Positions 14,011 to 41,441 of a stretch of 64,000 nucleotides of DNA are shown in pieces. The stretch is from Leptogorgia sarmentosa (lineage: Eukaryota): assembly GCA_964658305.1 (NCBI GenBank), contig OZ210884.1, positions 7,688,001 through 7,752,000 of the forward strand, given 5' to 3'. Each line of letters starts with the position of its first letter. The stretch's first letter is position 1. The position numbers were made by a program, and so were the translations under genes. The notes under the pieces are model-generated. The model was not told the DNA's origin, searched no databases, and was given only the letters and a program-made list of their open reading frames with translations.

Positions 14011-17000
14011 TTATAATATCACGCTGATTACTTCAATTGAGCTACTCTCCCACATTGTTATTGCCTCAAAAGTTACGTCAATTCTTTCTTTCCCGACTGT
14101 AACATGCGGTTGGATGTGGTAATCGTCAACACGTAATGAACTGTGGCCATTAATAGCTCTTTGTGGGCAGAACCAGATTCCAGCGTATTTTCCATCAACT
14201 TCCACTTTCGCCTTTTGGTTTGGTACCATAGAGCGATATTCTCTACGCAAAATAACCCCGGCGTTATTTTTCTCAGTTTTAAATGTGTGTGTTACGCGTT
14301 GTTTAACTTTTAGGGACATGATATATTTGTTGAAAAGAATTTCAGGTTGATTTTCAAACGTCGATAGAATTTCGAAAATATGCTCATCATTTGGAGTATA
14401 CCGCACGTTATGTGATGAGGTAGATTTATTCTTCCCATAATCCAGTTTATCTGTCGTTATCCCTCCTGGACCCTTGCGCCCGTAAAACATGACAACACTA
14501 AAGAGTGTAGTATCAGATATTGTCTGATTAAACGACCGAGAACTATTTTCAAAAGATCGTGCAGGGCTGCGGTCCCAACGACCATATGATCCTTCAAGAT
14601 AAATACGAACACCTTTGGTAAATAAAATGGGATCGAAAATCATATGTCGGTACGCATACATGCGCTTTAGTACTCGGCTTTTGTCCCAATAAAGAGGGAC
14701 ACCATTCAGCACATTACTCGTGTTTCGGAGCCCTTTAAATCCATGCGTGTAGCCAAAATAGTCCTCGAGGCCAGTTGAAGAAATTACAGGAGCTGTAGCA
14801 TTTTCTGTCTCGATGATGACATCAATTTCTTGAAAGCCACTCGGGACGTTTGCAATCAAGTTAATGGCGACCACATGTCCCCATTCATTCTCAACATGCA
14901 GAAGAGTTTTATGTTTTATTGAAACGAAATCATACCTGTTTAGTTGCGCGCTAAAATATCCCGTTAAACGTGGATTATATTCCCTTCTATCCATCTGTTT
15001 TGTGTTTATTTGACTGCAAACCACCGCTGAACCAAATCCACGCGGTCGCCTGATTACAATTCGCGCGGAAGTCCAGAAAGGCATTTCGCAATATAAGTGA
15101 GCTACCCAATCAAGTTCTGCAAGGCCCGATAAGTTTATGGCTCCATTTCCACGTGTGCTGCACTTCTTTTTCCGCATTCCCGCCATCAAAGAGTTCACAT
15201 CGCGAAGGTAACCAAGCCCAACCATAAAAAGTCCTGCAAGTGGAATTTCTTTAACTTGGGGTTCTCTTCCATCCCAAATCATTGTAATCAAAATTCTCTC
15301 CCAGTGTTCGGAAATGGCGTAATTTCCTCGATGGCCATCATAGACTCTTAGTAACAAGGACTGGATAATTTGCCCAACATCAGATGCGAATATTGTTACT
15401 TCCTCCCCAGGCCCAACGTTATAACACGTAAGCTCACACTTCGAACCTGAACCGGGTGTGTAGTCTTCTGGTGCGTTCGCCATTGTTGAGACGGCATGGT
15501 TTAAATGGTCAAGATAGTTTTTTCGGGGATTTGACAAACCGAACGGGTAATAATCTTGAAAAGTCGACTTGAGTTGCACGCCGTGGACCAGCTTATTGCT
15601 CGCAATGCCGAAATACACACGGACAGGGCACGGTAATCTTTTCCTTTTACAATTAGTCATTTTTTCCCACATTTCTTTTTCACTTAAAATAGGGCGATCT
15701 ATCAATCTGGCCGTGATACGTAGTGATTTTTGATATGCAATAGGGAATGTCACGTAATAACCGCAATTCCTATTACCTCGGTCAGCACGAAAGAAAGGTT
15801 GCTTCAATGGATAGTTCTTGTCTGGAGTAGTGACAAATGTCGTTGTGTTTTTAAGTACCACCCCATCCACCTTGAATATATGAACATAAATTCAGTTATT
15901 ATGAGAGCCACTGAATATTTGAAGAGAATCAAAATTTTATGATGATAACTATACTTTAGTTGAAATATCGAGTTTTCACGATAGTTCACAACAAGTTTTC
16001 AGAATGTCATCAATTTTAGGAGTGTCGAATATAATGTTTGGTATTTAAAGGTTTTTTTCAAGTTTCTCAGAAAGAACATTGCGTGGAGAACTTTTGGGAA
16101 AGGTTCATAACAAAATGCATGCCATTGGAAAATAACCAAAATACTGCACATAGGCCGTTTTCTTCAATATTCTTTGTGCATGCGAGTTCTCAGAGAATGC
16201 CACTTTAACTAGGGCAGGGCTGCATGAGTTCAAGTCAGATTAACATTGAAATTTTTCTTCATTGCAAGTGGAACAACCATTTCTAATAAATTTCTAATGA
16301 GCTTTGTTATTTTTTTACCTCAAATGTAACAAGCGTTCTGTGTGCAAAGTTAACCCGATGTTCCAATAGAAATCTTTCTACGATGCCGGCTCCGTAATCT
16401 TCGAATAACAACATATCATTTCCACTGTAATTGACTGGGTTAAAGAAATCCCCGTTACCACCAACAGGATCGTAACTTGTGATTTCTGAATATTTTCGTC
16501 CAAATCTTCGTTTTGGAATTTCACTGAAATCAAATTTCCAAGTTGAGTTGTCCGCTACATCTCCTCCAAAAATATGCGCCATGTCTATGAAACAATAACT
16601 CAGATATCAGAATGACTTTTATTTTTTTTCTAAATAAGCAGCGAGCGGAATGCTAGCGTTGTAAGACGGGACGCGTCATGGCTAGACAGGCTCGTATATA
16701 TAAATGGACGAAAAAGGTCAAACTGGCGGCTTGTAATATGGGCTAAATAAATTCCGTCTTATGTAATCAGCGACTTCTTTTATCTTGTTAACTCTCTGTT
16801 CACACGAGCTGCGATTTTCTCCTTTTGATAGATGTGAAGAAGTGCATTAATAACGAATGTGTTGATGAAACGATTGATTGATTTGTAAACGTACTATAGT
16901 TGCGTTTGAAGTAGTTGCGGATTGCGGAAGACACGTCATTCAAATTTCAAAGGATGAATGTAGAGTGTGTGTAAGATTACCTGTGTCCCTTATTGGTTCT

Positions 17001-19052
17001 TCCAGTTTTCGAAGAACAGTTAGGATGTCGGAATCAGAATGCATATATCCTACAGAAAATTAAAAATCTAGAGATAGTTCTTTTAATCGTGACAGAAATA
17101 CGTTAACACAGAGTATATATAAGGAATTCAGTAATGCACAACACGAATATATGAATATGTGCCCCCCCCCCCCCCCCCAATTATCGATCTTCCCCGGCCT
17201 CTGAAAGTGAGTACAACAGTTAGACCTCTGCATGTAATTCCTCTGTGACGTTAATGAGTATTCAGTACAAAAGATATTTAGCTCCAAATTCATAAGTTAA
17301 GAATCGAATGACCAGCTGACAAAAAAAATGTGGTGTAATAATTTTGGGAATCGCAATGGACATGCAGTTATTGAATGTGGCCGAGCAGGATATTAAACAA
17401 CTATTGAATGAGGTCGAGTAGGATATGAGGAATTATTTAGGCCGAGGTTTGTGTTATTTGCGATAGCCGAAGGTTTAAGCAAATAACAAATCAAGACCTC
17501 AATAATTCAGCATATCCTGCGAGAACCGAATTCAATAATGGTTTTAATTTTTATTTGTGTCTTTATCAGAGCGGGTTTGGAATTTAAGTTGACGGGCAAG
17601 TTTGACAAAAGTCGATCCATTAGGAACAGCTTTAAGAGTTATTTTAAGTCTCGATAGACATGTTACCGCTAATTGCCCGTCATTTAGGCGAGAAGTCACG
17701 TGATTGAATACAAGCAATTGAGGCAGAAGTTTGCGTTATCTACCAGGCATGGCGAGTTGTGTTAATAGGTTTTAATAGTCATTATTAAGATAAATTAAAG
17801 TTTAAAAAAATTAATTACTATAATTATCACTGTATGATATAATTATATACATTAGATTGATATATACTTACGTATAGTATACCATAAGGATGTTGGGATA
17901 GATGATTGCATCACCATTACGTATACGGAGATAGTCAGAATGACAAATATAGACAGAATGAGAAAACCCTAACATGAAAGAAAAATTTCCTATGTGATAT
18001 AAGTATTAGCCAGGTTCATAATTGACCAGTGGCCCACTAAACCGGAGGGGGGGAGGGGTGCTGGAGGGCATATCTATATATTCGTACGTGTTTTGCATAA
18101 ATAATTTCTTCTGAAATCGCGATTGTTTTTATAGTATGTGAACATGAATATATGAAAATGCCTCCCCCACTTATCGAGTATAATAACGCCACTGGATCGG
18201 ACTTCGACTACCCTTACCATTAGTGAAGATGAACCAATCGGATGCGTTAAGTTTATCTGATTAACCAATCACATACACAATAGGTCAGCGAAAATTAACG
18301 GCTGTGGCGAGTGGAAGTCAAATCTGAACCAGGCTATTGCGCGTATGTGTCAGTATTAATATTTAACCTTGGCGTTAATTTTACGGTCGAATTTCAAATT
18401 TTCCAAGAGATCGACTAAGCACTTTTTTACAGAAAATATAAAGTGTTGGTAAATATACGTAATTAATTCGGATTCATTTATGCTATATTTGCTCCAAAGA
18501 CCCCAATTACACGATGCTGGATTCAGATCGGAGCGACTTCAATTTCGGAGGATATCCAGTCTTCTCTGCTCCGGAACTTTTTGTATTTTTTAGCGCCATA
18601 ATCCACTTTGAAATAGCAAATTTGAAGTCGCTCCGATAGTAATCCAGTATCGAGTAACTGATGCCTAAGGCCTGTTTTAGACGTCGAGTTTCCGTCGCAT
18701 CGAATGCAATTCAAACAATGGATAATGAGATAACTATGCAATTCGACGTCTAAAACGGGATAGGAACAATCACATGTGATTCACATATGATTCACATGTG
18801 AGCCACATGTGAACTGAAACACATGTAAAAATCCACATGTGAAACACATGTAAATCACATGTGAATCATATCCAATTCCACATGTGAACCTCATTGTTTC
18901 ACATGTGGGTTTTTTCATGTGTATTTTTCGTAAGGGGTAATATTTTCTTTTTAATGGCAATAATTCAAATATTTTTGTTCAATTTTACTTAAAAACTTGA
19001 TCTATACCTTTTTAATTCGTGTTGTTGAACCACAGGCACACGTGGACGCCAT
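14011..19052 (-). CDS. DUF2961 / GH172-like glycoside hydrolase, type II membrane-anchored, copy 1 (778 aa)
   Basis: Exons 19052-19008 (MASTCACGSTTRIKK), 17968-17872 (GFLILSIFVILTISVYVMVM..., hydrophobic anchor), 17049-16981, 16584-16319 and 15870-14011; all GT-AG, total 2337 nt in frame. DUF2961-like motifs: TSYDPVGGNGD, FEDYGAGIVERF, ITMIWDG...PLAGLF, MPFWTSARI, GYFSA, QEID...STGLEDYF, YRHMIFDPILFTKG, and C-terminal NAGVILRR...QKAKVEVDGKYAGIW. Confidence 0.85.
18669..18759. mobile_element. Small MITE-like element (PIF/Harbinger-type termini) in intron 1 of DUF2961 copy 1
   Basis: Inverted ends GGCCTGTTTTAGACGTCGA ... TCGACGTCTAAAACGGG; absent at the equivalent site of copy 3 (~36875). Confidence 0.55.
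18770..18936. repeat. CACATGTG(A)-rich tandem/palindromic repeat element
   Basis: About ten degenerate CACATGTG(A) units; absent from the paralogous intron of copy 3. Confidence 0.7.
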
Positions 19053-19264
19053 TCCCTACAAAAAAAGACTCCCCATGTTTAGTGATTTATTGTATGGCCT
19101 AGTTTTCAAAATTTCTGTTACTTGGGGGAATTCGTCGCTCGATTCAAAATCGCCGCTTTTGTCGGGAACGTATAGCTACATTTTGCTTATCGATTTCATC
19201 CATTATTCAATTTCCAATGAATGATAAACGTTTCCCTTTTAAACAAAGATTGCAATGTCAATCC

Positions 19265-20239
19265 CAAGGGCGTCAATCCTGGGGGGGATGGGGGGATGGG
19301 GGGACGCGTCCCCCCCACTTTTTGAAGTGGGGGGGACGAATATCTAATTATCCCCCCCACTTTTTATCATATGGAAAAAAAATGTTTTTTGGCAATCTTA
19401 AAACCCCATGCCTGTATGCTATATATCGTGAATTATGAAGTTCAATCAACAATCTGAGATCAGAAGAAAACTATTCGGAGCCTTCGAATAGTTCTGCGAA
19501 TGAAATCCTAATTGGAAAAGCAATAAACGGACCTCAGCCACGTACACACGTTCAAATTTGCTTTTGTTTTTATTGATCATTGTATGTACAATGATCAAAT
19601 CATTTCATTTGCGATTCAAATCTTTATTTTATTTATTAAAATAATACGTGTTCAAATAATACACATGCATTCGACATCGACAAAAAATTCTCATAATTTA
19701 GGCAAGAAATTCGGCGCAATAATTTTAGTAAAACTCGTCCCCAGAACGCTGAAAATGGCATTTGTGCATGAGGTTTCAAATTTTAAAATGTTTCGGGGAG
19801 CATGCCCCCAGACCCTTCTAGAAAGGGCACGTTTCATTACTATTTTACAACAGACAGATTTTGCCCCCCCCATAAGCGTACGAGGCGGGGGACAAGGGGG
19901 GCAACCCCCAATAAATTCAAATCGGGAAATTCGGGCACCAATTTTGAGCATAATTCGCGCAAAAATTTGAGGAGTAAGGTAATGTTAACAATCCTCCAGT
20001 CGTTCACCTGAACGAGCGTACCAAGAAAGTGGAGTTGGGACTCTGAAATCGCCGTTTCCGGCAATCCAGAGGTTGTAAAAGTTCAAAAATTTCTCGCTCG
20101 GCGCCAACCATGGTGGCGCCTCGTGATATTCACCACCCTCAAATTCGGGCAAAGATCTTTCTGCCCCCCTCCCCCCTGAAAAAATGTAGCCCTTACGCTT
20201 ATGGTCCCCCCCACTTTTTGGGACGGATTGACGCCCTTG
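19265..20239. mobile_element. Non-autonomous DNA transposon (~975 bp, hAT-like MITE)
   Basis: Perfect 15-bp TIR CAAGGGCGTCAATCC ... GGATTGACGCCCTTG, GC-rich subterminal runs and a degenerate flanking duplication (TCAATCC core). The empty site is present in the paralogous regions at ~29105 and ~37680. Confidence 0.85.
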
Positions 20240-21055
20240 GACTCAATCCAACTACAATTGTCTCGAATACTTTTATGCAAACTATTAATTTAACCAGTAA
20301 TAGTATGATCGTGCAATTTTGAAACATACACCATAGGCAGCCCAGTCATCTGGGGTTTTATTTATGTTATTTCATCATATTATTATAATTATTATACTAT
20401 TTATTACATACGCGAGTGACCGTATTGTCGGCGCACGCATATAAACAACTACCTATGCATACACTCGTGAGTTTTCCAAAGACCTCGAATAGCTCTCGTC
20501 CTTCGGACTCGTGCTATTTTGAGGTCTTTTGAAAACTCACTCGTGCATGTTAATTCCAAATTGCACTCGAAACCAATCTAATGAAACCATTACCTACACT
20601 AATCATATACGTACTCGAAAAAAGTACTGAACTGTATTTTTGAGTTAATCATTATAATCATTATAATTCTATTTCAGAACCATCCTCAGAGATATTAAAA
20701 ACTAGATTCATATTAATATCTAACTAGAATTATACAATATCGCTTTATAAACAGGTAAACTTCATGGTAAATGTATAGGGCTAACTATGTGAATCGACTA
20801 TCACTTTGGTAGCAATTTAGGTGTGTAGAATTTTCATGAAGTAAATACACAGGTTTTCTTTAATATCCCTATATCAACCGGCAAATGCACACAAAAGCAT
20901 TTTACTTAATTGTTATTTCAAGGATATACTTACTGCTGATTAGAAAGTTGAGCCGTTTAGACCTATTCTTAATAAACCTACCTATACCTACTTACCTATT
21001 CTCGATCGTGTAAAAAAAAACCTAAACATATGCAGCCAAACATATACATACTCAC

Positions 21056-21171
21056 AAATCGATCACTCTTTTGTGCAGTGTTGTTCACTTGATGATGTTC
21101 AACAACAATATTTCGATAGCTCTGTAATTTGTATTGATTTGATGTTGCGTTCGTTACACATGCATGGTCAA
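21056..21171 (-). other. Putative non-coding 5'UTR exon module, repeated six times
   Basis: Flanked on the minus strand by acceptor gtatttcag and donor gtgagtatg. Near-identical copies at ~22850-22971, 28607-28723, 29680-29796, ~38238-38353 and 40222-40338. Confidence 0.5.
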
Positions 21172-24100
21172 CTGAAATACCACGCTGGGCCCCTTGGCAT
21201 GCACTTTGCTGTGAAATTTAAATAATCTGAATTTTATATCAATTATGATGGGATGTGGGAAACGATATATATACGAGTTAGCGAACTGTTGAGTTGAGAA
21301 ACATGTTAAGGATAAATCTGCTTCGACTTGCCACGAAATGTGGCACGAAGATCCTAAAATAGACAGAACTTATGTAAAGCATAGTTTAATTAAGGTCTAG
21401 TTAATTGTCAGTTACATTTTGAACCTATGATCCTATGATAAAGAAATAATACCCCGCTGGGCCCCTTGGCATGCACTTTGCTGTGAAATTTAAATAATCT
21501 GAATTTTATATCAATTATGATGGGATGTGGGAAACGAGGTTTACACGAGTTAACGAAGTGTTGAATTGAGCAACATATGTTAAGGATAAATCTGCTTCAA
21601 CTTGCCACGAAATGTGGACGAAAATACTAAAATAGACAGAACTGCTGTAAGGCCTAGTTTCCATGTTTGTTTGAGTGCTTAGCGACTATAAACAACCAAA
21701 GATAACAGAGTCGCCAGGCAGCAGTGTATAGTTGAAGTAGGCTTTATTGTATTCCTCATATTTGCCATTTTTTGCAAATACCAACCGATCAAAGAACACT
21801 CAATGGACAATAAATCTGATCATGAAGTTTTTATCCATATCACATGCGAACACTTTCAACACATCAAATCTATTTTAGAACTGCATCCTAACGAAGAAAA
21901 TAACCCGACTCAAACTTGTAGCTATATTTTCAGAATTTATATTTACTAACTCTAAGATTATAGACAGATCTGACCATTGGTCGTTATTACTCTTTAAAGA
22001 ATCACTTTCCATTCGACGCTTTAACCTGAACTAAATCACGGAGCTAAGGCATCAAAAGAACTTACAATATTTAATTAATCTCCTGTGCATATATATATAA
22101 TTATATATATTTATAATATAAGTTGGGTAAAATCTCCAACGTGATTGGCTAATGAGCGTGCATTATAACAGCGTAATGCACGCATCTAGCTATTAAATTT
22201 CTCCCGCGACTCTTTGGTTTGATAAAAAGACAATAAAAATACATATATACTAAAAATACATCCATAATTTTTATCGCTTGAATTGTTTGCTTTCGCTCAG
22301 CTAAAGGAATAAAGCTGTGTTGCTGCTTGGCAACATTTGAGAACACGCTTGATTACATGTAAAGAGAATTGTAATTTTGATCTTCCTAACGAAGTTATTT
22401 GTTGCGCTAATATTCTCTTATATTATAAAAGAAATAGAAAAACTCGTCGCGTGCCATTATGCTGTTGAAATTGCACTCCGGCAATGTTGTGAGAATACTC
22501 GGCTACGCCTCGTGTTTTACGCGATTCTCTCGTATTCTCCCAACATTTCCCTCGTGCATTATAACAGCATAATGGCACGCGACTCGTTATCTATTTCTTA
22601 AATATCAAATTACTTAATCTTCACAATATATATCGATGTAATGTAACCTAGCATCATTCCTGATGATGACTGAATCTTAGTCGAAATATAAGATAGAATA
22701 TTAAAATGTTTATTTTCGGAGTTACAGTTGTTTTATATTTTATTAAAATACTCAGTGGTTCCCGTAATTTTTAGACCTATATTCTCGGTCATGTAAAACA
22801 AAACTCCTAAACATATGCAGCCAAACCAAACATATACATACTCACTCACAAATCGATCGCTCTTTTATGCAGTCTTGTTCACTTGATGATGTTCAACAAC
22901 AATATTTCGATAGCTCTGTAATTTGTATTGATTTGATGTTGTGTTGAGTTCGTTACACATACATGATCAAACTGAAAGTACTCTCACAGTTGGATGCCAT
23001 TGCTGGCATGCACTTCACTGTGAAATTTAATTTGGGATGTGGGAAACGGAAAAGAGGTATATATTGAGCAACATGTTAAAGATAAATCTGCTTCAACTTA
23101 CCACGAAATGTGGCATACACGAAAATACTAAAATAGACAGAACTGCTGTAAGGCCTAGTTTCCATGAATAGGCCATAGGTTGCAAGCTCTCGACCGCGTT
23201 TGTTTGAGTGCTTAGCGACTATATAAACAACCAAAAATAACAGAGTCGCCAGTCGGTAGTGTATGGTTGAAATATGCTTTATTGTATTCCTGAGATTTGT
23301 GATTTTTTGCAAATAGCTACCAAGCGACGTTTTTGACAACACACGCACGTCAATCAGGAGTCAATCGAGCTGTTTATTGGCTATAATGGCTTGATTCATT
23401 TCCAGTTGGCGTTTGTGTAGCAAAAACGTCGCTTGCTGAAGCTCGCTAATAAGCATGGGATTGGACCTGACAGGAACAAAATTGAACCCGCGAATGCAAG
23501 GAGCTTTCAATGCAAATTGTCTGTTACATTTTGAACCTATGATCCTACGATAAAGAAATTTTCAACTCTTTTGTCCGGTGGTTTGGATAATAAGTGATGG
23601 TGAAGAGTCCGGTCAGATTACCGTTTGTATGTCTGCATGGGCTTTACTGAACTCAAATAGAGATCCGCAAACAGATTGTTTCCGAGTTTCAATGAAGATT
23701 TTTCTACAAGCGTCAGCTCTTCTTCTTGTTCGAATGCGGTGCAAGCGGGTGACAGGCACCCTGTTGCCCAACACTAATATATTTGCATATTCAAATGATT
23801 TTTTAAACTAAAATATGCAACTGTGCATTATATACGTGGCATTTTAACAAGTGTATACACGTTTGGCATCGTATTTGTTTTCGCGATGAAGTTTCGTTTG
23901 GGGAGATGGACGCTAAAGTTATGTACTGTTTGCCTCAAAAAGGTGCCACCACAGCCTGTTTCATCCAAGAGGAATCATCAGGTGGCTGACAAAAGTCGAA
24001 AAGTTTGCTGCTTAAATAGTTTAAATGTTTACTGTCGGAAACGTGGGCGTGTGGGCGTCAAATAATGCATGCATCCTTCCATTTTTAGAATGAAACTATT

Positions 24101-24406
24101 TCTGATTTTTTATTTAGCAAATGTTGTTTGTTTTTATCTTTCAAAATACAAAGCTTTTCTTCAAAACATACATTACATCTTTTTGTTCCTCCCGTATACG
24201 AAATACACAGTTTAATTATTGACCAAGTAATGTCGAAATCTATCTTATTATCTTCTAGTATCTTCAGTTTGGAATCCTTCAGTAATTCTCAAATTAAAAC
24301 GTTAGAAAGTGAGCGCAAGTCGTCCATTGATTAATAACAATTGAGTAAAAGAAAACAATTACTCCAAAACTAATATAAAAACTTATCACTTTCTACCTGT
24401 GACAAT

Positions 24407-27400: not shown

Positions 27401-28303
27401 ATCTAGACGGCGCCGCTCTACCAATCGAGTCTTATCCTATTTAAGTGCATGAAATATTTTGTAACAAAGGATATTTTGGTTACAGTTCAGAAGACTGATG
27501 CAATGGCTCGAATTGAGGTTTGCGTTATCTGCCAAAACCAATGACATGTGAATTTTTCCTAAGATTCGAGCTTTTTCGACCAATCAGATTGCATGCTGGA
27601 AATTTTCTACTCGCTTCAAACTGATTTATACTAAACTTACGTATGGTATACCAGAACGATCTTGGGATATTTGACTGCATCACCATTAGGGAGATAGTCA
27701 GAAAGACAAATATAGAGATAATGAAAAAACCCTACAAGGAAAAAAAATTCCTATAGCTACGTGTTAAAAAGTAAACGCAGCTCCTATAGCAAATGTATTG
27801 CAAATGTGTCAGTATTGATGTTTGATCTTGATGTTAATTGATAGGTCGTCATTAATCTGTGTTACCAGACCACGTGCCAACTGTACGTGTGTATGCACAA
27901 AATTTTTTATATGACAAGTTTTTATGTGACAAGTTTTTCTTGCCCGTCTGTACAAGTCAACAATTTTACTTTGGCAACTTTTCTTTGTTGACCGTACAGA
28001 CGGACAACATTTTTACTTTGCCAATTTTTTCTATGACAAGTGCATGCAAAGTAAACTTGTCATAGAAAACTTGCTCGTCTGTAAGGGGCTTTAATTTGAA
28101 AATGTTTATCAGAAATTTTGTCAGGATCAATGAGAGATTTCTTCTTTGAAGTTTCGAAGTATAAACAGACATGCAAAAATACACAAACTAAAACCCTGCA
28201 TTAGCCTTAACCTGCCTTTGAACAACCGACCTTTCACTAAGTCTATAATGATCTATACCTTTTTAATTTGCTTTGTTGAACCAAATCCACATGTGGACGC
28301 CAT
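24407..28303 (-). CDS. DUF2961 / GH172-like glycoside hydrolase, type II membrane-anchored, copy 2 (778 aa)
   Basis: Exons 28303-28259 (MASTCGFGSTKQIKK), 27731-27641 (GFFIISIFVFLTISLMVM...), 27274-27206, 26803-26538 and 26272-24407; 2337 nt in frame. Same motifs as copy 1 (QEKD...STGLEDYF). Confidence 0.85.
27361..27431 (-). mobile_element. tRNA-derived SINE head or tRNA pseudogene in intron 2 of DUF2961 copy 2
   Basis: Minus strand GACTCGATTGGTAGAGCGGCGCCGTCTAGATTCCCGAAGATGCGAGTTCAAATCCCGCTCGAGAC: D-arm/A-box (TTGGTAGAGC) and T-arm/B-box (GAGTTCAAATCC) present, no intact acceptor stem. Absent from the other paralogs. Confidence 0.6.
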
Positions 28304-31290
28304 CCTCTACAAAAAAAGGCTCGCTATGTTTACTGTTTATTTATTTACATGCAAGATTTGTTCCATCATCAATGAATATTAAACAGTGAATTAATATTGA
28401 TAACTCAATATTTTGTTCCAATATATTGATACTGTAGGAAAGGTTGTTGGTTAATGATAGCTATTCAATGAAAACTTGCTGAATGTACTAAAGTGTCTTT
28501 TTCTCTGCTAATCATATACGCGCTCGAAAATAGTATCATAGTCCGAACTGTATTTTTGAGTTTGTAAAAAACCCCTAAACATATGCAGCCAAACATACAT
28601 ACTCACAACTTGATCACTCTTTTATGCAGTGTTGTTCACTTGATGATGTTCAACAACAATATTTCGATAGCTCTGTAATTTGTATTGATTTGATGTTGCG
28701 TTCGTTACACATGCATGGTCAAACTGAAATACCCCCTGCGGGGGGGGGGCATGGCCCCCCTGCCCCCCCCCCAGTTCCGCGGTCCCTGGAGAAACAAAAA
28801 TTTTACTGTAGTTTTACTTGTTTTTAAATTTACCGCTCGCATATCGCGGGCTCGAAGCTAGTGTGGTATTTGAAAAATTAATGACACACCTGTGTAATTA
28901 ATGCTTAATTCGCACAGTTGTTGAAGCTTTTTAGCCAATCAGCGTGCAGGAAATTGACTACAATGATATTACTTGGGGAATTCGTCGCTCGATTCAAACT
29001 GATCGCCGCTTTAGTCGGGAACGTACATTTTACTGTTTAAGCTCATCCATTTTTCAGTTTTTCAGTTTATTGATAAATATGTTTCCCTTTTAAACAAACC
29101 TAGCAATGCCAATCCAACATCAATTGTCTCGAATACTTTTATAAAAACTATTAACAAGTAATAGTATGATTTCTCATGCAATTTGGATAACATACACTCG
29201 TGAGTTTTCCAAAGACTTCGCGAATAATCTGGAAAACTGACTCGTGCATGTTAATTCCAAATTGCACTCGAAACCAAACTATTAGCTACCTATAATACTA
29301 ATCATATACGTACTCGAAAAACGTACTGAACTGTATCTTTGAGTTAATCATATTACCTACCATACAATACAATTATACAATATCGCTTAATAAACAGGTA
29401 AACTTCATGGTATATGTATAGGGCAAATACACGTGAATCGACTATAGTAGCTATATACGTGTGTAGAATTATAATGAAATAAATACACAGGGCTTTCTTT
29501 GATATCCCTATCAACCGGCAAATGCACACAAAAGCATTTTATTTAACTGTTATTTCATAGAGAGTTGAGCCGTTTAGACCTATTCTAATCGGATCTACCT
29601 ATACCTATACCTACCTACCTACCTATTCTCGGTCGTGTAAAAAACCCCTAAACATATGCAGCCAAACATACATACTCACAACTTGATCACTCTTTTGTGC
29701 AGTGTTGTTCACTTGATGATGTTCAGCAACAATATTTCGATAGCTCTGTAATTTGTATTGATTTGATGTTGCGTTCGTTACACATACATGATCAAACTGA
29801 AAGTACTCTCACAGTTGGATGCCATTGCTGGCATGCACTTCACTGTGAAATTTAATTAATATTGCAATTTCTATCAATTCTGGGATGTGAGAAACGGAAA
29901 CGAGGTATATATTGAGCAACATGTTAAGGATAAATCTGCTTCAACTTGCCACGAAATGTGGACGAAAATACTAAAATAGACAGCACTGCTGTAAGGTCTA
30001 GTTTGCATGCATAGGCCATAGGTTGCAAGCTCTCGCCCGCGTTTGTTTGAGTGCTTAGCGACTATAAACAACCAAAAATAACAGAGTCGCCGCGACACGC
30101 CAGTCGGCAGTGTATAGTTGAAATAGGCTTTATTGTATTCCTTAGACTTTGTCATATTTTTGCAAATACCAAACGACGTTTTTGACAGCAAGAACGCCAA
30201 TGAAGAGTCAATCGAGCTGTTTATTGGCTATAATGGCTTGATTCACTTCCAGTTGGCGTTTGTGTAGCAAAAACGTCGCTTGCTTAACCTCGCTATTAAG
30301 CATGGGATTGGACCTGACAGGAACAAAATTGAACCCGCGAATGCAAAGAGCCAGAGGCAAAGAGCTTTCAATACCAATTGTCTGTTACATTTTGAACCTA
30401 TGATCCTATGATAAAGAAATAAAGTATTTTCAACTCTTTTTGTCCGGTGGTTTGGATATTAAGTGATGGTGCAGAGTCCGGCCAGATTACCGTTTGCATG
30501 TCTGGGCTTTACTGAAGTCAAATACAGATCAAACAGATTGTTTCCGAGTTTAATAAATGAAGATTTTTCTACAAGCGTCCGCTTTTCTTCTTGTTTTTTT
30601 TCTTCGAATACTGTGCAAGCGGGTGACAGGCACCCTGTTGCCCAACACTAATATATTTGCATATTCAAATGATTTTTTAAACTAAAATATACAACTGTGC
30701 ATTATATACGTGGCATTTTAAGTTTTTAACAAGAGTATACACCGTTTAATTTGGCGTCGTATTTGTTTTCGCGATGAAGTTTCGTTTGGGGAAATGGACG
30801 CTAAAGTTATGTACTGTTTGCCTCAAAAAGCTGCCACCACAGCCTGTTTCATTCCAAGAGAAATAATCATGCAGGTGGCTGACAAATCTCGAAAAGTTTG
30901 CTGGTTAAATTATTACTGTCGGAAACGTGTGCGTGTGGGCGTCAAACAATGCATGCATCCTTCCATTTTTAGAATGAAACTATTTCTGATTTTTTATTTA
31001 GCAAATGTTGTTTGTTTTTATCTTTCAAAATACAAAGCTTTTCTTCCAAACATACATTACATCTTTTTGTTCCTCTCGTATAGGAAATACACTGTTTAAT
31101 TATTGACTAAGTAATGTCGAAATCTATCTTATTATCTTCTAGTATCTTCAGTTTGGAATCCTTCAGTAATTCTCAAATTAAAACGTTAGAAAGTGAGCGC
31201 AAGTCGTCCATTGATAAATAACAATTGAGTAAAAGAAAACAATTACTCCAAAACTAATATAAAAACTTATCACTTTCTACCTGTGACAAT

Positions 31291-34200
31291 TTATAATATC
31301 ACGCTGATTACTTCAATTGAGCTACTCTCCCACATTGTTATTGCCTCAAAAGTTACGTCAATTCTTTCTTTCCCGACTGTAACATGCGGTTGGATGTGGT
31401 AATCGTGAACACGTAATGAACTGCGGCCATTAATAGCTCTTTGTGGGCAGAACCAGATTCCAGCGTATTTTCCATCAACTTCCACTTTCGCCTTTTGGTT
31501 TGGTACCATAGAGCGATATTCTCTACGCAAAATAACCCCGGCGTTATTTTTCTCAGTTTTAAATGTGTGTGTTACGCGTTGTTTAACTTTTAGGGACATG
31601 ATATATTTGTTGAAAAGAATTTCAGGTTGATTTTCAAACGTCGATAGAATTTCGAAAATATGCTCATCATTTGGAGTATACCGCACGTTATGTGAAGAGG
31701 TAGATTTATTCTTCCCATAATCCAGTTTATCTGTCGTTATCCCTCCTGGACCCTTGCGCCCGTAAAACATGGCAACGCTAAAGAGTGTAGTATCAGATAT
31801 TGTCTGATTAAACAACGGAGAACTGGCTTCAAAAGATCGTGCAGGGCTGCGGTTTTTACGACCCGGAGATCCTTCAATATAAATACGAATACCTTTGGTA
31901 AATAGAATGGGATCGAAATTCATATGTCGATACATGTACATACACTTTACTCCCGGGGCTTTGTCCCAATAAAAAGGGACACCATTCTGGACATTACTCG
32001 TGTTTCGCAGACTTTTAAATCCATGCGTGTAGCCAAAATAGTCCTCGAGGCCAGTCGAAGAAATTACAGGAGCTGTAGCATTGTCTGTCTCGATAATGAC
32101 ATCATTTTCTTGAAAGCCATTCGGGACGTTTGCAATCAAGTTAATGGCGACGACATGTCCCCATTCATTCTCAACATGCAAAAGCGTTTTATGTTTACTT
32201 GAAACGAAATCATACCTGTTTAGTTGCGCGCTAAAATATCCCGTTAAGCGTGGATTATATTCCCTTCTATCCATCTGTTTTGTGTTTATCTGACTGCAAA
32301 CCACCGCTGAGCCAAATCCACGCACGCGCTTGATTACAATTCGCGCGGAAGTCCAGAAAGGCATTTCGTAATATAAGTGAGCTACCCAATCAAATTTCGG
32401 AAGGCCCGATAAGTTTATGGCTCCATTTCCACGTGTGCTGCACTTCTTTTTCCGCATTCCCGCCATCAAAGAGTTCACATCGCGAAGGTAACCAAGCCCA
32501 ACCATAAAAAGTCCTGCAAGTGGAATTTCTTTAACTTGGGGTTCTCTTGCATCCCAAATCATTGTAATCAAAATTCTCTCCCAGTGTTCGGAAATGGCGT
32601 AATTCCCTTCATCACCATCGTAGACTCTTAGTAACAAGGACTGGATAATTTGCCCAACATCAGATGCGAATATTGTTACTTCCTCCCCAGGCCCAACGTT
32701 ATAACACGTAAGCTCACAGTTTGAACCTGAACCGGGTGTGTAGTCTTCTGGTGCGTTCGCCATTGTTGAGACGGCATGGTTTAAATGGTCAAGATAGTTT
32801 TTTCGGGGATTTGACAAATCGAACGGGTAATAATCCTGAAAAGTCGACTTGAGTTGCACGCCGTGGACCAACTTATTGCTGGCAATGCCAAAATACCCAC
32901 GGACAGGGCACGGTAACATTTTCACTTTACACTCAAGCATTTTTTCCCACATTTCTTTTTCACTTAAAATAGGACGATCTATCAATCTGGCCGTGATACG
33001 TAGTGATTTTTCATATGCAATAGGGAATGTCACGTAATAACCGCAATTCAAATCACCTCGGTCAGGACGAAAGAAAGGTTGCTTCAATGGATAGTTCTTG
33101 TCTGGTGAAGTGGCAAATGTCGTTGTGTTTTTAAGTACCACCCCATCCACCTTGAATATATGAACATAAATTCAGTTATTATGAGAACCACTGAATATTT
33201 ATTCAGTTATTATGAGAACGTTAACCACTGAATATTTGGAGAAAATCAAAGTTTTATGATTTATAACTGTAACACTTTGGTTGAAACATCGAAACAAATT
33301 ATCAGAGTGTCATCTATTTTAGGAGTGTCTAATATAATGTTTGGTATTTAAAGTTTTTTTTCAAATTTCTCAGAAAGAACATTGCGTGGAGAATTTGCGG
33401 AAAGGTTCACGACAAAATGCATACCATTGGAAAATAGCCAAAATACTGCACATCGGCCGTTTTCTTCAATATTCTTTGTGCATGTCAGTTCTCAAAGAAA
33501 ACCTGCCACTTTGACTAGGGCTGAATGAGTTCAAGTCAAATTAACATTGAAATTTTTCCTCGTTGCAAGTGGAACAACCATGCATCTAGATCAAGAGCTA
33601 GTGCACTAACCACTTCGGTCTTCGCCATGAAACCGCTAATGCGAATAAGTTTCTAATGAGCTTTGTTATTTTTTACCTCAAATGTAACAAGCGTTCTGTG
33701 TCGTTTGTTAACCCGAGTTTCCAATAGAAATCTTTCCACGATGCCGGCTCCGTAATCTTCGAATAACAACATATCATTTCCACTATAATTGACTGGGTTA
33801 AAGAAATCCAAGTTACGACCATCAGGATCATAACTTGCGATTTCTGAATATTTTCGTCCAAATCTTCGTTTTGGAATTGCACTGAAATCAAATTTCCAAG
33901 TTGAGTTGTCCGCTACATCTCCTCCAAAAATATGCTCCATGTCTATCAAACAATAACTCAGACATCAGAATGACTTTTATTTTTTTCTAAATAAGCAGCG
34001 GGCGGAATGCTAGCGTTGTAAGACGGGACGCCTCATGGCTAGACAGGCTCGTATATATAAATGGACGAAAAAGGTCAAACTGGGGGCTTATAATATGTCT
34101 TTTTACTTAACTCTCTGTTCATACGAGCTGCGATTTTCTCCTTTTGATAGATGTGAAGAAGTGCATTAATAACGAATGTGCTGAGTGTGTTTCCTCACAT

Positions 34201-37096
34201 TTGTGACTGGTTTACTCGTCAACGTCAGTCAAAAAGAGAGAATCGGGCTATTTAACAATTAGATTACGAGCTCGAGATTTCTATGAGGTGATAGTTGATG
34301 AGGGCGAAGCCCGAGTCAACTATCATCTCGTAGAAATCGAGAGCGAGTAATCTAATTGTTTTAGTAGAATCAGAGATCAAACATGAAAATATTGCAAAAA
34401 ATAATTTAAAACCGCGTCTCAGAAGACATTTTCTTGAACGAAAATTCACATATTTGGCTACTCGCTATCTATCGAGGAATAGATAGCGAGTAGAGTAGCC
34501 AATCAAATTGCAGCATTTGCAATAGTATACGAGTATGATTCTACTAAAGGGCTTTAGTATACACCCAACCATCGTCTATTACAAATGGTACATTCTGATT
34601 GGCTACTCAGCCGTCGTCTATTTAACAATTAGACAACTCGGCCTCGTTGTCTCAGCGAATAGTCAACTCGGACTTCGTCCTCGTTGACTATTCGCTCATA
34701 GACAACTCGGCCTGCTTGTCTAATTGTTAAATATATATGTATAGAAAATGGCAGCGAAATCGCTACCGTTAACGGGCCTTTTAACAGACTTATTGTGTGT
34801 ATGTATTGTATTTCTATGTTATTTCTATGTATTTGATTTTTTTTCATACTTAAACGCCCGTCCTGTAAATCAGCATTAAATTTGTTGTGCGAAACTAGTG
34901 TGTGTCTTAAATAAATTCGATTGATTGATTTGTAAAGTTTAACGTACTAGTTGTGTTTGAATTAGCCGCGGAAGACACGTCATTCAAAAGAGGAATGTAG
35001 TGTGTGTGCGAGATTACCTGTGTCCTTTATTGGTTCGTCCAGTTTTCGAAGAACAGTTACGATGTCGGAATCAGAACGCATATACTCTACAGAAAATTAA
35101 AAATGTAGAGATAGTTCTTTTAATCGTGGCAGAAATACGTTAACACAGAGTATATATAAGACAGAGGTCTATCATTAAAAAGTGGCATTTTCATATATTA
35201 ACCACTTTTTTAATGCAGCCAGGCAAAAAATGATCAACTACGCATGCTTGGCATGTTCAAATTTGGTCGTCATCCAATCAGGCCGAGCATGCGCACAAAA
35301 AACTGGGTACAATTAACAGTTAGACCTCTGCATGTAATTCCTATGTGACGTTAATCAGTATTCAGTACAAAAGATATTTAGCTCAAAGTTCATAAGAATC
35401 GAATGAACCGCTGACAAAGAAAATATGTGTGTAATAATTTTGGCAATGGTGATGGACAATTATTGAATGAGGCCGAGCAGGATATTAAACAATTATTGAA
35501 TGAGGTCGAGTAGGAGATGAGGAATTATTTAGGCCGAGGTTTGTGTATTTTGCCGAAGTCAGTTTATCATGCAGTCTGGCTACAACCACTGCAACTTGTT
35601 CAATTGCTCGTCATTTAGGCGAGAAGTCACGTGATTGAATACAAGCAATTGAGGCAGAAGTTTGCGTTATCTACCAGGCATGGCGAGTTGTGTTAATAGG
35701 TTTTAATAGTCATTATTAAGATAAATTAAAGTTTAAAAAAATTAATTACTATAATTATCACTGTATGATATAATTATATACATTAGATTGATATATACTT
35801 ACGTATAGTATACCATAAGGATGTTGGGATAGATGATTGCATCACCATTACGTATACGGAGATAGTCAGAATGACAAATATAGACAGAATGAGAAAACCC
35901 TAACATGAAAGAAAAATTTCCTATGTGATAAAAAGTAGACCTACCACACATATAAGTATTAGCGAGGTTCAGAATTGACCAGTGGCGTCACCAAACCGGG
36001 GGGGGGGGGTGGTGCGGGAGGACATATCCATATTTTCGTGTTTTGCATAAACAATTTCTTCTGAAATCGCGATTGTTTTTACAGTATGTGAACATGAATA
36101 TATATTGTTATATAGTTGGTGTCAAAGTTCAATTTTCCCGTTTGCTGATTGGACAAAACCGTATCACGTGCCGGTTCACAAAACGTCATGTTCGCCAACC
36201 GGTCAAAAATCAAAAAATTATTGACCGGGCAACAATTAAATGGGCACAATGCGCATGCGCGTCAACCGTGAAGTCCAAAGTTCATTCAATCGTACGATGT
36301 TTTTTAAATTTATCGAACATTTACGGCGTAAGGCGTCCCATTTAATGTCTGTTTTTTTATTTCAACGTTCGCTCCAGTATTAAACCGGTGAATTCATTCA
36401 TATTTTGACACTAAACTATATAACAAAACACTTATTTACTGAAACCTCGAGAAACATTGTGTTTTTGTGGCCCCTCGACCGCCATTGTTGCCCTCGGCTT
36501 CGCCTCGGGCAACAACGGCGGTCTCAGGGCCACAAAACACAATGTTTCCCTCGATCTCAGTAAATAAGTGATAAATAATGCCTCCCCCTCTTAACGAGTA
36601 TAGTAACGCCACTGGATCGGACTTCCACTACCATCAGGGAATATGAACCAATCGGATGCGTTAAATTTATCTGGTTAACCAATCACATACACAATAGGTC
36701 AGCGAAAAGTAACGGCCGTGGTGTAGTGGAAGTCAAATCTGAACCAGGCTATTGCGCATATGTGTCAGTATTAATATTTAAACTTGGCGTTAATTTTACG
36801 GTCGAATTTCAAATTTTGCAAGAGATCAAATTTGAACGGTTGCTCCGGTAGTAATCCAGTATCGTGTAACTGATGCCTATAATACCTGTACCTAATACCG
36901 GTACATTATTCGATATCAGTGGACAGTGAACCATTTTGAAAACTTCATTTAGATGCAGAATGACAAAGTCGCATGTAACAAGGTAGTTTTGTTTCTAATG
37001 GCAATAATTCAAATATTTTTGACACATTTTACTTAAAAACGTGATCTATACCTTTTTAATTCGTGTTGTTGAACCATGGGAACACGTGGACGCCAT
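31291..37096 (-). CDS. DUF2961 / GH172-like glycoside hydrolase, type II membrane-anchored, copy 3 (778 aa)
   Basis: Exons 37096-37052 (MASTCSHGSTTRIKK), 35899-35803 (matches copy 1 exon 2), 35086-35018, 33942-33677 and 33150-31291; 2337 nt in frame. QEND...STGLEDYF retained. Confidence 0.85.
34249..34732. repeat. Two adjacent palindromic hairpin elements in intron 3 of copy 3
   Basis: TATTTAACAATTAGA...GGCGAAGCC...TCTAATTGTTTTAGTA (34249-34365) and TATTTAACAATTAGAC...GACTTCGTC...GTCTAATTGTTAAATA (34618-34732). Absent from the equivalent intron of copy 1. Confidence 0.75.
36425..36577. repeat. Palindromic hairpin element with GGCTTCGCC apex, at the end of a ~480-bp insertion in copy 3 intron 1
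   Basis: CACTTATTTACTGA...GCCCTCGGCTTCGCCTCGGGC...TCAGTAAATAAGTG; the region ~36105-36577 is missing from the paralogous intron of copy 1. Confidence 0.75.
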
Positions 37097-39889: not shown

Positions 39890-41441
39890 TACAGGTATAA
39901 GCGTCGCAGAAAAACCTCATTTTATATAGGGCTAATATATGTGAATCGACAATGGTAGATATATATGTACGTGTGTACTGTGTAGAACTAGTACTTTTAT
40001 TAATGAAATAAATACACATGCTTCTTTGATATCCCTGTCAACCGGCAAATGCACACAAAAGCGTTTTTATTAAATTGTTATTTCAACGATATACTTACTG
40101 CTGATTAGAGAGTTGAGCCGTTTAGACCTGTTCTTAATATACCTACCTACCTACCTACCTATTCTCGATCGTGTAAAAAAAACCCTAAACATATGCAGCC
40201 AAATTAAACATAAATACTCACAAATCGATCACTCTTTTGTGCAGTGTTGTTCACTTGATGATGTTCAACAACAATATTTCGATAGCTCTGTAATTTGTAT
40301 TGATTTGATGTTGTGTTCGTTACACATGCATGGTCAAACTGAAATACCCCGCTGGGCCCTTGGCATGCACTTTGCTGTGAAATTTAAATAATCTGAATTT
40401 TATATCAATTATGATGGGATGTGGGAAACGATATATATACGAGTTAGCGAACTGTTGAGTTGAGAAACATGTTAAGGATAAATCTGCTTCGACTTGCCAC
40501 GAAATGTGGCACGAAGATCCTAAAATAGACAGAACTTATGTAAAGCATAGTTTTAATTAAGGTCTAGTTAATTGTCAGTTACATTTTGAACCTATGATCC
40601 TATGATAAAGAGATAAAGTATGAATTTTTCAACTCTTTTTGTCCGGTGGTTTGGAAAATAAGTGATGGTAAAAAGTCCAATCTGTTCCTTCCGATGCATA
40701 TTTTCCTGAGTGGAAATCGCCCATTCAAGCTCTTTATTCAAACTTCTACAAACAAGCACAACGTGGTGAGAGGTCAACTCAGAATTGCCGGAGTTCAAAC
40801 AATTTTTACGAACACAATTAATACAAACAGAAATTTTAATTGTTTACATGCATGTTGTAGCAATGTTTCTAAACAATAAAGCTTTCTGGCATAATCATTC
40901 TGAAATGATCATTTTGAAGAGACTGAAGAGAGTATATAAGTATATATGCCTTATATATGTGGCCAGGTAGGTAGCGAACAACAAAATGGACAATCATCAA
41001 AAGTTTTACTGCTCAGACTCAACTTTTGCAGCTTGTTTGGTAACTATGACATCCAATTGCTATATTTACATGCTGACCAGCTTGCATTGCTTCATCGCAT
41101 GAATTATATATACTATTATAGCTCTAGCCCTAATGAGAAGACCCTGTTTTCAATTTTCTTGATCTTCGTACGTTCTTGTTTAAGATGGAGTAAAGGCCTT
41201 ATTTTCACTTTTCCCCCTTTCACTCCATGCAATTGCACGGACTTGTATCCTTGTCCTTTCATTTCGACAACAAGCTCTTCATGTCAATTTAGAAGTTAAT
41301 TATTTCATACACATAGCACCTGCTATATGTATAATTATGTCAGTTGCCGTATTTTTTCCATCAACTCATGACAAAGTGGTATGATATATACAGCGTTCGT
41401 TTCTTGGAGACCAACTTCACGGCTGTTCAAACTTAACAGCA

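What the first reader, a model, noticed from the sequence alone, without database searches (positions are those of the whole stretch)
14011..37096. Tandem array of three bacterial-type DUF2961/GH172-like glycoside hydrolase genes in an animal genome (probable domesticated horizontal transfer)
Seen: three intact, spliced 778-aa paralogs lie between ordinary animal genes and carry host transposon insertions in their introns, so simple bacterial contamination is unlikely. The motif series SYDxxGxNxD / G.G...RF / WDG...PL..LF / MPF...ARI / GYF.A / E.D...TG.EDYF / YR....DPI.F / N.GV.LRR...Q.A.V.VDG...G.W resembles the long DUF2961 proteins of bacteria, especially Actinobacteria. Known: DUF2961 corresponds to CAZy GH172 (alpha-D-arabinofuranosidases/alpha-D-fructofuranosidases, including difructose dianhydride I synthase/hydrolase and exo-enzymes acting on mycobacterial D-arabinan). 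Its two catalytic glutamates lie in a GEG(E/D)...GTGxEDYF segment, and both appear retained here (QE[I/K/N]D...STGLEDYF). Inference: an animal enzyme family for D-arabinofuranoside/fructofuranoside chemistry, acting on bacterial cell-wall glycans or on host arabinose-containing mucus glycans or glycosides. I know of no characterised animal member.
Basis: partly seen in the sequence, partly recalled or inferred. Interest (0 to 1): 0.88.

Follow-up and report, generated by a model that had tools for sequence, protein, structure and literature searches.

The report
Coral array of GH172 sugar-cutting enzymes
Three intact tandem genes in what is likely a soft-coral genome encode members of a sugar-cutting enzyme family studied so far only in bacteria; they are predicted to be membrane-anchored, belong to what is likely an old animal-and-protist branch rather than a recent bacterial import, and would be candidate enzymes for the unusual D-arabinose sugars of coral glycans.

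Summary
Three minus-strand genes with five coding exons each encode 778-aa GH172/DUF2961 proteins, 90-92% identical. All four introns of the middle gene are joined in contigs of 3 of 3 runs laid (one study). Each protein has an N-terminal hydrophobic anchor, three jelly rolls and a CBM6/35-like domain, like bacterial Dg71. It keeps acid/base E507, nucleophile E528, D529 and the calcium-site residues.

The transfer reading needs changing. Relatives occur in octocorals (43-47% named, 74% unnamed), annelids, euglenids and Diphylleia. They form one clade (99/91) marked by His for Trp at nucleophile+7 (47 of 49 rows, against 0 of 118 others). AU tests reject grouping the octocoral genes with each prokaryote-type row tried. 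A prokaryotic origin is plausible but old, at or before the cnidarian-bilaterian split. Against simple descent, no intron position is shared with annelid-type genes.

Best reading (0.4): a retaining alpha-D-furanosidase or transglycosidase of the secretory pathway, acting on host D-arabinose glycans. Digestion of microbial glycans is the main rival (0.3). Animal DUF2961 genes are in print only as table rows in my searches. New variant of a known kind.

The parts
14011..15870 (-). Gene A coding exon 5 (residues 160-778): rest of jelly roll 1, jelly roll 1', catalytic jelly roll 2 (E507 codon 14829-14827, E528 codon 14766-14764), CBM6/35-like domain
16319..16584 (-). Gene A coding exon 4, with the SYDxxGxNxD calcium-site motif
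16981..17049 (-). Gene A coding exon 3 (stem)
17872..17968 (-). Gene A coding exon 2 (predicted membrane anchor)
   Evidence: hydropathy
19008..19052 (-). Gene A coding exon 1 (15-residue predicted cytosolic tail)
19264..20240 (.). MITE-like insertion with 16-bp perfect terminal inverted repeats upstream of A; the empty site is seen at about 29115 and 37688
21013..21181 (-). Non-coding segment with GT donor, likely 5' UTR exon copy 1 of A (by homology to B)
22800..22977 (-). Likely 5' UTR exon copy 2 of A
24407..26272 (-). Gene B coding exon 5 (residues 158-778; E507 codon 25225-25223, E528 codon 25162-25160)
26538..26803 (-). Gene B coding exon 4 (N112, D114)
27206..27274 (-). Gene B coding exon 3
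27641..27731 (-). Gene B coding exon 2 (predicted membrane anchor)
28259..28303 (-). Gene B coding exon 1; splice acceptor just upstream at about 28306
28607..28733 (-). Gene B proximal 5' UTR exon, joined to exon 1 in run X4
29680..29857 (-). Gene B distal 5' UTR exon, joined to exon 1 in run X5
31291..33150 (-). Gene C coding exon 5 (E507 codon 32109-32107, E528 codon 32046-32044)
33677..33942 (-). Gene C coding exon 4
34249..34733 (.). MITE-like element with ~75-bp inverted ends in intron 3 of C
35018..35086 (-). Gene C coding exon 3
35803..35899 (-). Gene C coding exon 2 (predicted membrane anchor)
36104..36576 (.). About 470-bp palindrome-rich insertion in intron 1 of C, absent from A
37052..37096 (-). 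Gene C coding exon 1
38199..38364 (-). Likely 5' UTR exon copy 1 of C
40176..40350 (-). Likely 5' UTR exon copy 2 of C

Best explanation
These are three tandem, intact GH172 genes of a likely octocoral, and they likely encode membrane-anchored, retaining alpha-D-arabinofuranosidase-type enzymes of the secretory pathway or cell surface that would trim or transfer terminal D-arabinose on the animal's own glycoconjugates. Each chain is predicted to complete its own active site, as in bacterial Dg71: the extra N-terminal jelly roll would supply the calcium-site Asn/Asp (and likely a Tyr) that short GH172 enzymes borrow from a neighbouring subunit. E528 would form the glycosyl-enzyme and E507 would act as acid/base. 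The genes belong to a eukaryotic branch that likely entered the animal line at or before the cnidarian-bilaterian split. The array is a recent local expansion whose differences cluster in short blocks, likely tuning what is accepted beyond the cleaved sugar. Shown: genes, splicing of B, family, conserved residues, tree placement. Inferred: topology, location, activity, substrate.
For: Family and fold: PF11175; sequence hits to ExoMA1 8ic8 (8e-6) and alphaFFase1 7v1v (0.0024), and 6e-28 to 2e-22 for four GH172 structures with a profile. The model of the 74%-identical relative P0001 (pLDDT 81) matches GH172 structures at Z 15.8-18.0, and its last domain matches CBM35/CBM6 at Z 12-13.

Architecture: residues 90-265, 266-460 and 461-630 match the first, first and second jelly roll of short bacterial GH172s (hhalign 96.7, 98.9, 99.7). 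This is the layout described for Dg71 (bioRxiv 10.64898/2026.08.13.744632).

Residues: E507/E528/D529 align with E270/E291/D292, D509 with N272, and N112/D114 with N31'/D33'.

Topology: one hydrophobic segment at residues 15-35 after a short basic tail, and 9 N-glycosylation sequons.

Constraint: dN below dS in 3 of 3 pairs (0.057/0.137, 0.046/0.079, 0.057/0.152).

Origin.

Host substrate lead: terminal D-arabinose in a gorgonian glycoprotein polysaccharide (PMC8700520, passages). Arabinose is a major mucus sugar of some stony corals, with its origin called open (PMC11189453, passages).
Against: No activity or localisation data. Dg71, the only characterised enzyme of this architecture, is weak on all substrates tested and its substrate is unidentified. 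Both aromatic pocket residues of alphaFFase1 are changed (W267 to Gly504, W298 to His535), and the three window proteins alone carry Ser at a Gly kept in 163 of the other 164 rows, so the sugar could differ. The passages I saw do not give ring form or anomer of the coral arabinose; from recall, many octocoral arabinosides are pyranosides, which would not fit. A DUF2961 orthogroup marks phagotrophy in stramenopiles (PMC8163842), which favours digestion. No intron position is shared with annelid-type genes. Euglenids fall closer to animals than Diphylleia does, unlike the species tree as I recall it. The Tyr245 = Y187' match is by motif analogy only and was not aligned by a tool.
Confidence: 0.4

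Rival explanations
1. Digestive or defensive exo-glycosidase: same chemistry, but the substrates are glycans of eaten or resident microbes (D-Araf or alpha-D-Fruf caps), at the gastrodermal surface or in phagolysosomes.
For: Characterised GH172 enzymes act on mycobacterial D-arabinan and pilin glycans (PMC10115798, PMC10509167, passages). A DUF2961 orthogroup is among 28 indicators of phagotrophy (IndVal 0.76; PMC8163842 section 11; whether it is the long form was not checked). Named protist relatives include Entosiphon and Diphylleia, phagotrophs by recall. DUF2961 genes are expanded in symbiotic Hydra viridissima (14 against 1-5; PMC7642931). Paralog differences cluster in blocks, one beside the acid/base residue. 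Brush-border hydrolases are also type II anchored (recall).
Against: A short, often Phe-rich anchor and stem recur in animal and protist members, as in Golgi enzymes (recall). Dg71 itself is poor on arabinan. The annelid-type branch has Gln for the acid/base Glu in 19 of 21 rows, which ill suits bulk hydrolysis.
Confidence: 0.3
2. Biosynthetic transglycosidase: a Golgi enzyme that uses the retaining mechanism to add D-arabinofuranose or a similar furanose from an activated donor onto mucus glycans or small-molecule aglycones.
For: Type II topology is predicted. GH172 enzymes transglycosylate (ExoMA1, PMC10509167; alphaFFase1, PMC8605356). The sister branch has lost the acid/base Glu while keeping the nucleophile and a conserved pocket, a pattern expected for donors with good leaving groups (inference).
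Against: The octocoral branch keeps Glu in 15 of 15 rows. No donor is known to me. No transferase activity is reported for the family in the papers read.
Confidence: 0.15
3. Non-catalytic or nearly inactive glycan-binding surface protein derived from GH172.
For: Changed pocket residues and the Gly-to-Ser change beside the nucleophile. A CBM-like C-terminal domain. One Diphylleia relative has lost the motif (P0222).
Against: Both glutamates, the adjacent Asp and the calcium-site residues are kept in 3 of 3 paralogs, and the acid/base Glu in 15 of 15 octocoral rows.
Confidence: 0.08
4. One reading: a recent, lineage-specific horizontal transfer from bacteria (Actinobacteria) into this animal.
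For: Bacterial-type family. Atlas look-alike clusters are 93-100% bacterial, some mostly Actinomycetota (only clusters of 50 or more are searched). A 1.86-kb exon, and no intron shared with annelid-type genes.
Against: Best named prokaryotic segments are 22-30% identical (77 loci), against 43-47% for named octocorals. The animal-type clade has 100/100 support. AU rejects 3 of 3 octocoral+prokaryote groupings and 2 of 2 animal+prokaryote groupings. 45 of 67 metagenome loci found with the annelid-type alignment are mostly gene-sparse and many are intron-split; the other 22 are gene-dense and only 19-27% identical where matched. GC3 is 0.38-0.39 against 0.30-0.38 in flanking ABC exons.
Confidence: 0.03

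Closest known systems
Dg71 / DgGH172b of Dysgonomonas gadei (GH172; bioRxiv 10.64898/2026.08.13.744632, PMC10115798)
   Same: Three jelly rolls plus a C-terminal beta domain, active site completed within one chain, two catalytic glutamates. The match is of my model and profiles to the paper's description; I did not have the Dg71 sequence or structure.
   Different: Dg71 is a periplasmic bacterial dimer. The window proteins have a predicted type II anchor, sequons, introns, and His at nucleophile+7.
alphaFFase1 (BBDE_2040, PDB 7V1V) of Bifidobacterium dentium (PMC8605356)
   Same: E270/E291/D292 and the calcium ligands N31', D33', N272 have counterparts; glutamate spacing is 21; Z 15.8.
   Different: Short double-jelly-roll hexamer with active sites between subunits. 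W267 and W298 are not kept. About 17-22% identity in structural alignment.
ExoMA1 (PDB 8IC8), Dg79 (8AH3), BACUNI_00161 (4KQ7)
   Same: Best sequence and fold matches (E 8e-6; Z 17.5-18.0); exo-alpha-D-arabinofuranosidase chemistry is shown for the first two.
   Different: Short form, oligomer-dependent, no anchor or CBM-like domain.
Uncharacterised eukaryotic DUF2961 proteins (Paramuricea, Xenia, Capitella R7T8X8, Helobdella T1FV02, Euglena, Entosiphon, Diphylleia)
   Same: Same clade, length and N-terminal hydrophobic segment.
   Different: The annelid-type branch has Gln for the acid/base Glu and Pro for the calcium-site Asn, and other intron positions. A separate ~330-420-aa eukaryotic set (sponge, Nematostella, Clytia, Monosiga) is listed in PMC8812541 Dataset S3 and was not in my trees.

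Membership tests
GH172 / DUF2961 | PF11175 match above the curated cut-off | tested here: met
   87-94 bits against 27 in 3 of 3 paralogs
GH172 / DUF2961 | Double jelly-roll fold like solved GH172 enzymes | tested here: met
   Model of relative P0001 (74% identical to exon 5 of B): Foldseek E 5e-13 to 2e-10, VIA Z 15.8-18.0, rmsd 2.5-3.3 over 268-284 residues. The window's own exon folded alone failed.
GH172 / DUF2961 | Acid/base and nucleophile glutamates plus the adjacent Asp | tested here: met
   E507, E528, D529 align with E270, E291, D292
GH172 / DUF2961 | alphaFFase1 pocket aromatics W267, W298, Y187' | tested here: inconclusive
   W267 and W298 are replaced by Gly504 and His535; Y245 is matched by motif only. 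These residues vary within the family (Dg71 lacks the first; W298A keeps 16.5% activity), so they are not defining.
GH172 / DUF2961 | Retaining exo-alpha-D-arabinofuranosidase or alpha-D-fructofuranosidase activity | not testable with these tools
   Needs enzyme assays
Dg71-type (long) GH172 architecture | Extra copy of jelly roll 1 and a C-terminal beta domain | tested here: met
   hhalign 96.7/98.9/99.7; CBM35/CBM6-like Z 12-13; PF28588, PF11175 and PF28589 on relatives
Dg71-type (long) GH172 architecture | Active site completed within one chain | tested here: inconclusive
Recent bacterial horizontal transfer | Nesting of this lineage's genes within a bacterial clade, apart from other eukaryotes | tested here: not met
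Vertically inherited ancient eukaryotic gene | Eukaryotic monophyly | tested here: inconclusive
   99/91 in the careful tree and a shared His (47 of 49 against 0 of 118), but the tree with Diphylleia outside is not rejected (p 0.23) and five rows of the deeper branches are unnamed
Vertically inherited ancient eukaryotic gene | Intron positions shared between cnidarian and bilaterian copies | tested here: not met
   Window introns at residues 15, 46, 69, 158 of B; annelid-type introns map to 103, 364, 416, 472
Golgi-type type II membrane glycoenzyme | Uncleaved N-terminal anchor and Golgi residence | not testable with these tools
   Hydropathy only; no signal-peptide or localisation predictor was run

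The most novel reading that the evidence does not exclude
The animal GH172 branch is an unrecognised family of Golgi furanosyl transferases. Built on the enzyme fold akin to double-jelly-roll virus capsids, it installs D-arabinofuranose caps on coral mucus glycans. The annelid branch has become a natural acid/base-less ligase (Glu to Gln in 19 of 21 rows). This would give a host-encoded source for arabinose in coral glycans.
Probability: 0.13. Interest if true: 0.85.

Novelty: new variant of a known kind. Interest (0 to 1): 0.52.

Why it matters
GH172 chemistry has been studied only in bacteria in the papers I found, and the substrate of the single-chain architecture is unknown even there. An old, membrane-anchored eukaryotic branch, expanded in tandem in octocorals, gives testable candidates for D-arabinose metabolism in animals; the origin of arabinose in coral mucus is called open in PMC11189453. 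Ready probes exist (alpha-D-Araf aziridines, pNP-alpha-D-Araf). The Glu/Gln split between octocoral and annelid-type branches is a natural experiment on hydrolase versus transferase function.

Tried and rejected
No whole genome is held, so copy number outside the window was not counted.

Sequencing runs: no RNA holder was listed; splicing rests on joints in contigs. Gene A had almost no cover in X4/X5, which is not evidence of silence. Contig depth was not used as copy number.

Alleles mis-assembled as paralogs: rejected, because of 8-10% protein divergence and different introns and insertions.

Contamination: rejected, because of splicing, host-type repeats, and Xenia gene models on 11-22 Mb contigs.

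Searches that added nothing: the profile search of the 90% database reached no further than the octocoral set plus one weak hit. NCBIfam gave 0 families for 3 proteins. Phage records gave 1 weak unannotated hit at 23%, and viral contigs 1 locus at 25%, so there is no sign of a viral donor.

Models and tests that failed: the single-sequence fold of exon 5 of B had pLDDT 28.6. The mixture-model AU test never finished; I used 47 of the 79 rows under LG+F+G4 with short constrained searches, which can overstate rejection, above all for animals+P0085 (p 0.011).

Sampling limits: the GTDB scan covered 20 of 64 parts and its pattern favoured short forms. The Actinomycetota sample (39 of 301 genomes with any match) gave only short-branch catalytic domains among the 6 of 14 loci read.

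Positive selection is not shown: dN/dS is below 1 overall and no site test was run.

Literature: searches gave nothing useful; PubMed 21517058 is not held. Earlier-findings look-ups returned nothing. No complex prediction was run.

Full report
OBSERVATION. Six-frame translation and self-comparison show three long minus-strand reading frames with matching upstream exons. Joining five exons per gene gives three open 2,337-nt CDSs of 778 aa, with GT-AG introns in phases 0,1,1,0 and 89.6-91.9% pairwise identity. All three large exons match PF11175 well above cut-off. In contigs of 3 of 3 runs laid on gene B (X4-X6, one study, library type not on record) all four introns are joined, and two alternative upstream non-coding exons are joined to exon 1. 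A C-specific 297-bp piece lies in X4, and C-type letters lie in an X6 contig; nothing shows splicing of A or C. Inverted-repeat insertions occur in introns of C and upstream of A. Flanks are an ERGIC-type gene, a guanylate-kinase-domain gene, a ligand-gated channel and two ABC transporter copies. The host is inferred to be an octocoral: the closest named relatives are Paramuricea (47%) and Xenia (43%), and unnamed ones reach 74% (32 hits among 5,671 candidates).

ANATOMY. A 15-residue basic tail, one hydrophobic segment and a stem precede the catalytic region; each protein has 9 sequons. Profile comparison with 65 short bacterial or archaeal GH172s places two copies of jelly roll 1 (residues 90-265 and 266-460; probability 96.7 and 98.9) before jelly roll 2 (461-630; 99.7). 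The last domain has no match there, but folds like CBM35/CBM6 (Z 12-13) in the model of P0001, whose core matches four GH172 structures (Z 15.8-18.0). This is the layout described for Dg71, whose active site is completed within one chain and whose substrate is unidentified (bioRxiv 10.64898/2026.08.13.744632, parts 1-4 of 5 read, supplements closed). I did not have the Dg71 sequence.

ACTIVE SITE. By alignment to 7V1V and PMC8605356 (passages and section 7), E507, E528 and D529 correspond to acid/base E270, nucleophile E291 and D292. D509 corresponds to N272. N112/D114 in the extra jelly roll correspond to the neighbour-subunit calcium ligands N31'/D33'; the direct alignment of that stretch to 7V1V is weak (2.1 bits) and rests on the profile match. 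Y245 as Y187' is my inference from the motif. W267 and W298 are replaced by Gly and His, and the three window proteins alone have Ser four residues before the nucleophile.

ORIGIN. The representative search found 292 proteins at E up to 0.001, 150 listed. Look-ups of 30 of them named Xenia, Capitella, Helobdella, Euglena, Entosiphon and Diphylleia; most had no name. Named prokaryotes reached 22-30% (77 loci; 20 of 64 parts scanned). A FastTree of 167 non-redundant cores gave a 49-row clade holding all named eukaryotes and no named prokaryote (support 93). The careful tree (79 rows, 442 columns, LG+C20 PMSF) gave: octocoral-type 11 rows 100/100; animal-type 24 rows 100/100; plus euglenids and P0118 99/90; plus P0099 97/89; plus Diphylleia, 32 rows, 99/91. 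The deeper branches are long, many rows are unnamed, and the tree has no inferred root. His at nucleophile+7 occurs in 47 of 49 clade rows and 0 of 118 others, 92 of which have Trp.

TOPOLOGY TESTS. AU tests on 47 of the 79 rows (LG+F+G4, short searches) rejected octocorals with sampled Actinomycetota (1e-35), with P0121/P0154 (5e-7) and with P0085 (7e-41). They also rejected animals with Actinomycetota (3e-48) and with P0085 (0.011). They did not reject Diphylleia falling outside (0.23) or animals with Diphylleia (0.065). The sampled Actinomycetota were short-branch proteins; P0121 and P0154 are unnamed. Of 67 metagenome loci found with the annelid-type alignment, 45 were 38-67% identical to P0207 in their best segment and mostly gene-sparse (ORF cover 0.13-0.84), many split by introns. 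The other 22 were gene-dense (0.78-1.00) and 19-27% identical where matched. GT-AG ends were read at 9 junctions.

AGAINST SIMPLE DESCENT. None of four annelid-type intron positions matches the four window introns, the genes are intron-poor, and euglenids branch closer to animals than Diphylleia. An intron-less gene of ultimately prokaryotic origin, arriving in or passing between early eukaryotes and present before the cnidarian-bilaterian split, fits best. I put that age at about 0.8 and a recent transfer at about 0.03.

PARALOGS. dN/dS is 0.057/0.137, 0.046/0.079 and 0.057/0.152. The 105 variable positions cluster at about 109-113, 144-155, 229-239, 471-478, 501-510, 552-565 and 588-605, while the last domain is nearly identical. 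This suggests recent duplication with patchy gene conversion and divergence of surface blocks; whether these line the pocket was not measured.

FUNCTION. Characterised members are retaining exo-alpha-D-arabinofuranosidases or fructofuranosidases that can transglycosylate (PMC10115798 and PMC10509167, passages). A gorgonian glycoprotein polysaccharide has terminal D-arabinose (PMC8700520, passages). Arabinose dominates the mucus of some stony corals, with origin unresolved (PMC11189453, passages), and symbiont walls held only trace L-arabinose (PMC8290866, passages). Ring form was not given in what I saw; Meikle 1987 and Coddeville 2011 were seen only as citations. A DUF2961 orthogroup marks phagotrophy in stramenopiles (PMC8163842, section 11). 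I rank host-glycan trimming or transfer at 0.4, microbial digestion at 0.3, dedicated transferase at 0.15 and lectin at 0.08. The acid/base residue is Glu in 15 of 15 octocoral rows and Gln in 19 of 21 annelid-type rows.

WHAT IS KNOWN. Krupovic et al. list 205 eukaryotic DUF2961 proteins, 22 of them metazoan, including long Paramuricea and annelid entries (PMC8812541, passages and Dataset S3 rows). The Hydra viridissima paper tabulates 1-14 DUF2961 genes in seven cnidarian genomes without comment in the section read (PMC7642931, section 15). Searches for DUF2961 (8 papers), GH172 (25, 21 listed), IPR021345 (1) and octocoral + transfer + glycoside hydrolase (7) showed no characterised animal member and no phylogeny of this branch; most listed papers were seen as listings only, and subscription journals are largely outside the library.

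VERDICT. Real, and a GH172 member by every sequence and fold test run. It is a membrane-anchored eukaryotic variant of the Dg71 architecture, not a recent bacterial import. New variant of a known kind; interest 0.52.

Noticed in passing
P0050, P0067, P0182, P0185, P0205-P0216 and related rows: The annelid-type GH172 branch has Gln in place of the acid/base Glu (19 of 21 rows) and Pro for the calcium-site Asn, yet keeps the nucleophile and a highly conserved pocket; a possible natural ligase or a changed mechanism.
   Followed up: partly
window 21013-21181, 22800-22977, 28566-28733, 29636-29802, 38199-38364, 40176-40350: Each gene carries two upstream copies of a ~170-bp non-coding exon; both are spliced to exon 1 in gene B, so there are duplicated alternative 5' ends.
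   Followed up: partly
window 24362-25986 (run X6 contig): One contig mixes B-type and C-type letters: a chimeric assembly or an allele shaped by gene conversion.
   Followed up: partly
window 15877-16340 versus 26250-28529: Contigs on unique parts of gene A have about twice the word depth of those on gene B in X1 and X2 (one sample). The tool warns that depth is no copy number; copy variation is possible.
   Followed up: no
window 47647-56676 and 58606-64000: Tandem duplicate of an ABC transporter gene (ABCC-like by recall), 88-95% identical in DNA including upstream sequence; the second copy runs off the window.
   Followed up: no
window 43347-47021 +: Ligand-gated ion channel gene (PF02931, PF02932), nicotinic-receptor-like by recall.
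   Followed up: no
window about 8000-13200 -: Guanylate-kinase-domain exon (E 3e-4) and neighbouring exons that resemble a calcium-channel beta subunit (recalled, not tested).
   Followed up: partly
window 1237-5405 +: ERGIC-type gene (PF13850, PF07970) with a 5-bp-unit microsatellite in an intron at about 2650-2770.
   Followed up: no
window 39290-39899: About 610-bp element with long, 95-100% complementary terminal inverted repeats between the two UTR-exon copies of gene C; likely a young MITE.
   Followed up: no
PMC8812541 Dataset S3: A second, ~330-420-aa DUF2961 set in sponge, Nematostella, Clytia, Paramuricea, Monosiga, amoebae and Rhizaria may be a separate ancient short-form eukaryotic family; some entries may be fragments.
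   Followed up: no
L092 (MT835583.1 16811-17686) and L093: Weak GH172-like matches (23-25%) in two phage or viral contigs, of note because the fold is akin to double-jelly-roll capsids; they may be host genes.
   Followed up: no
P0099, P0118, P0221, P0039, P0181, P0196: Unnamed rows branch inside the eukaryotic clade; their taxa would decide between deep paralogy and patchy loss.
   Followed up: no
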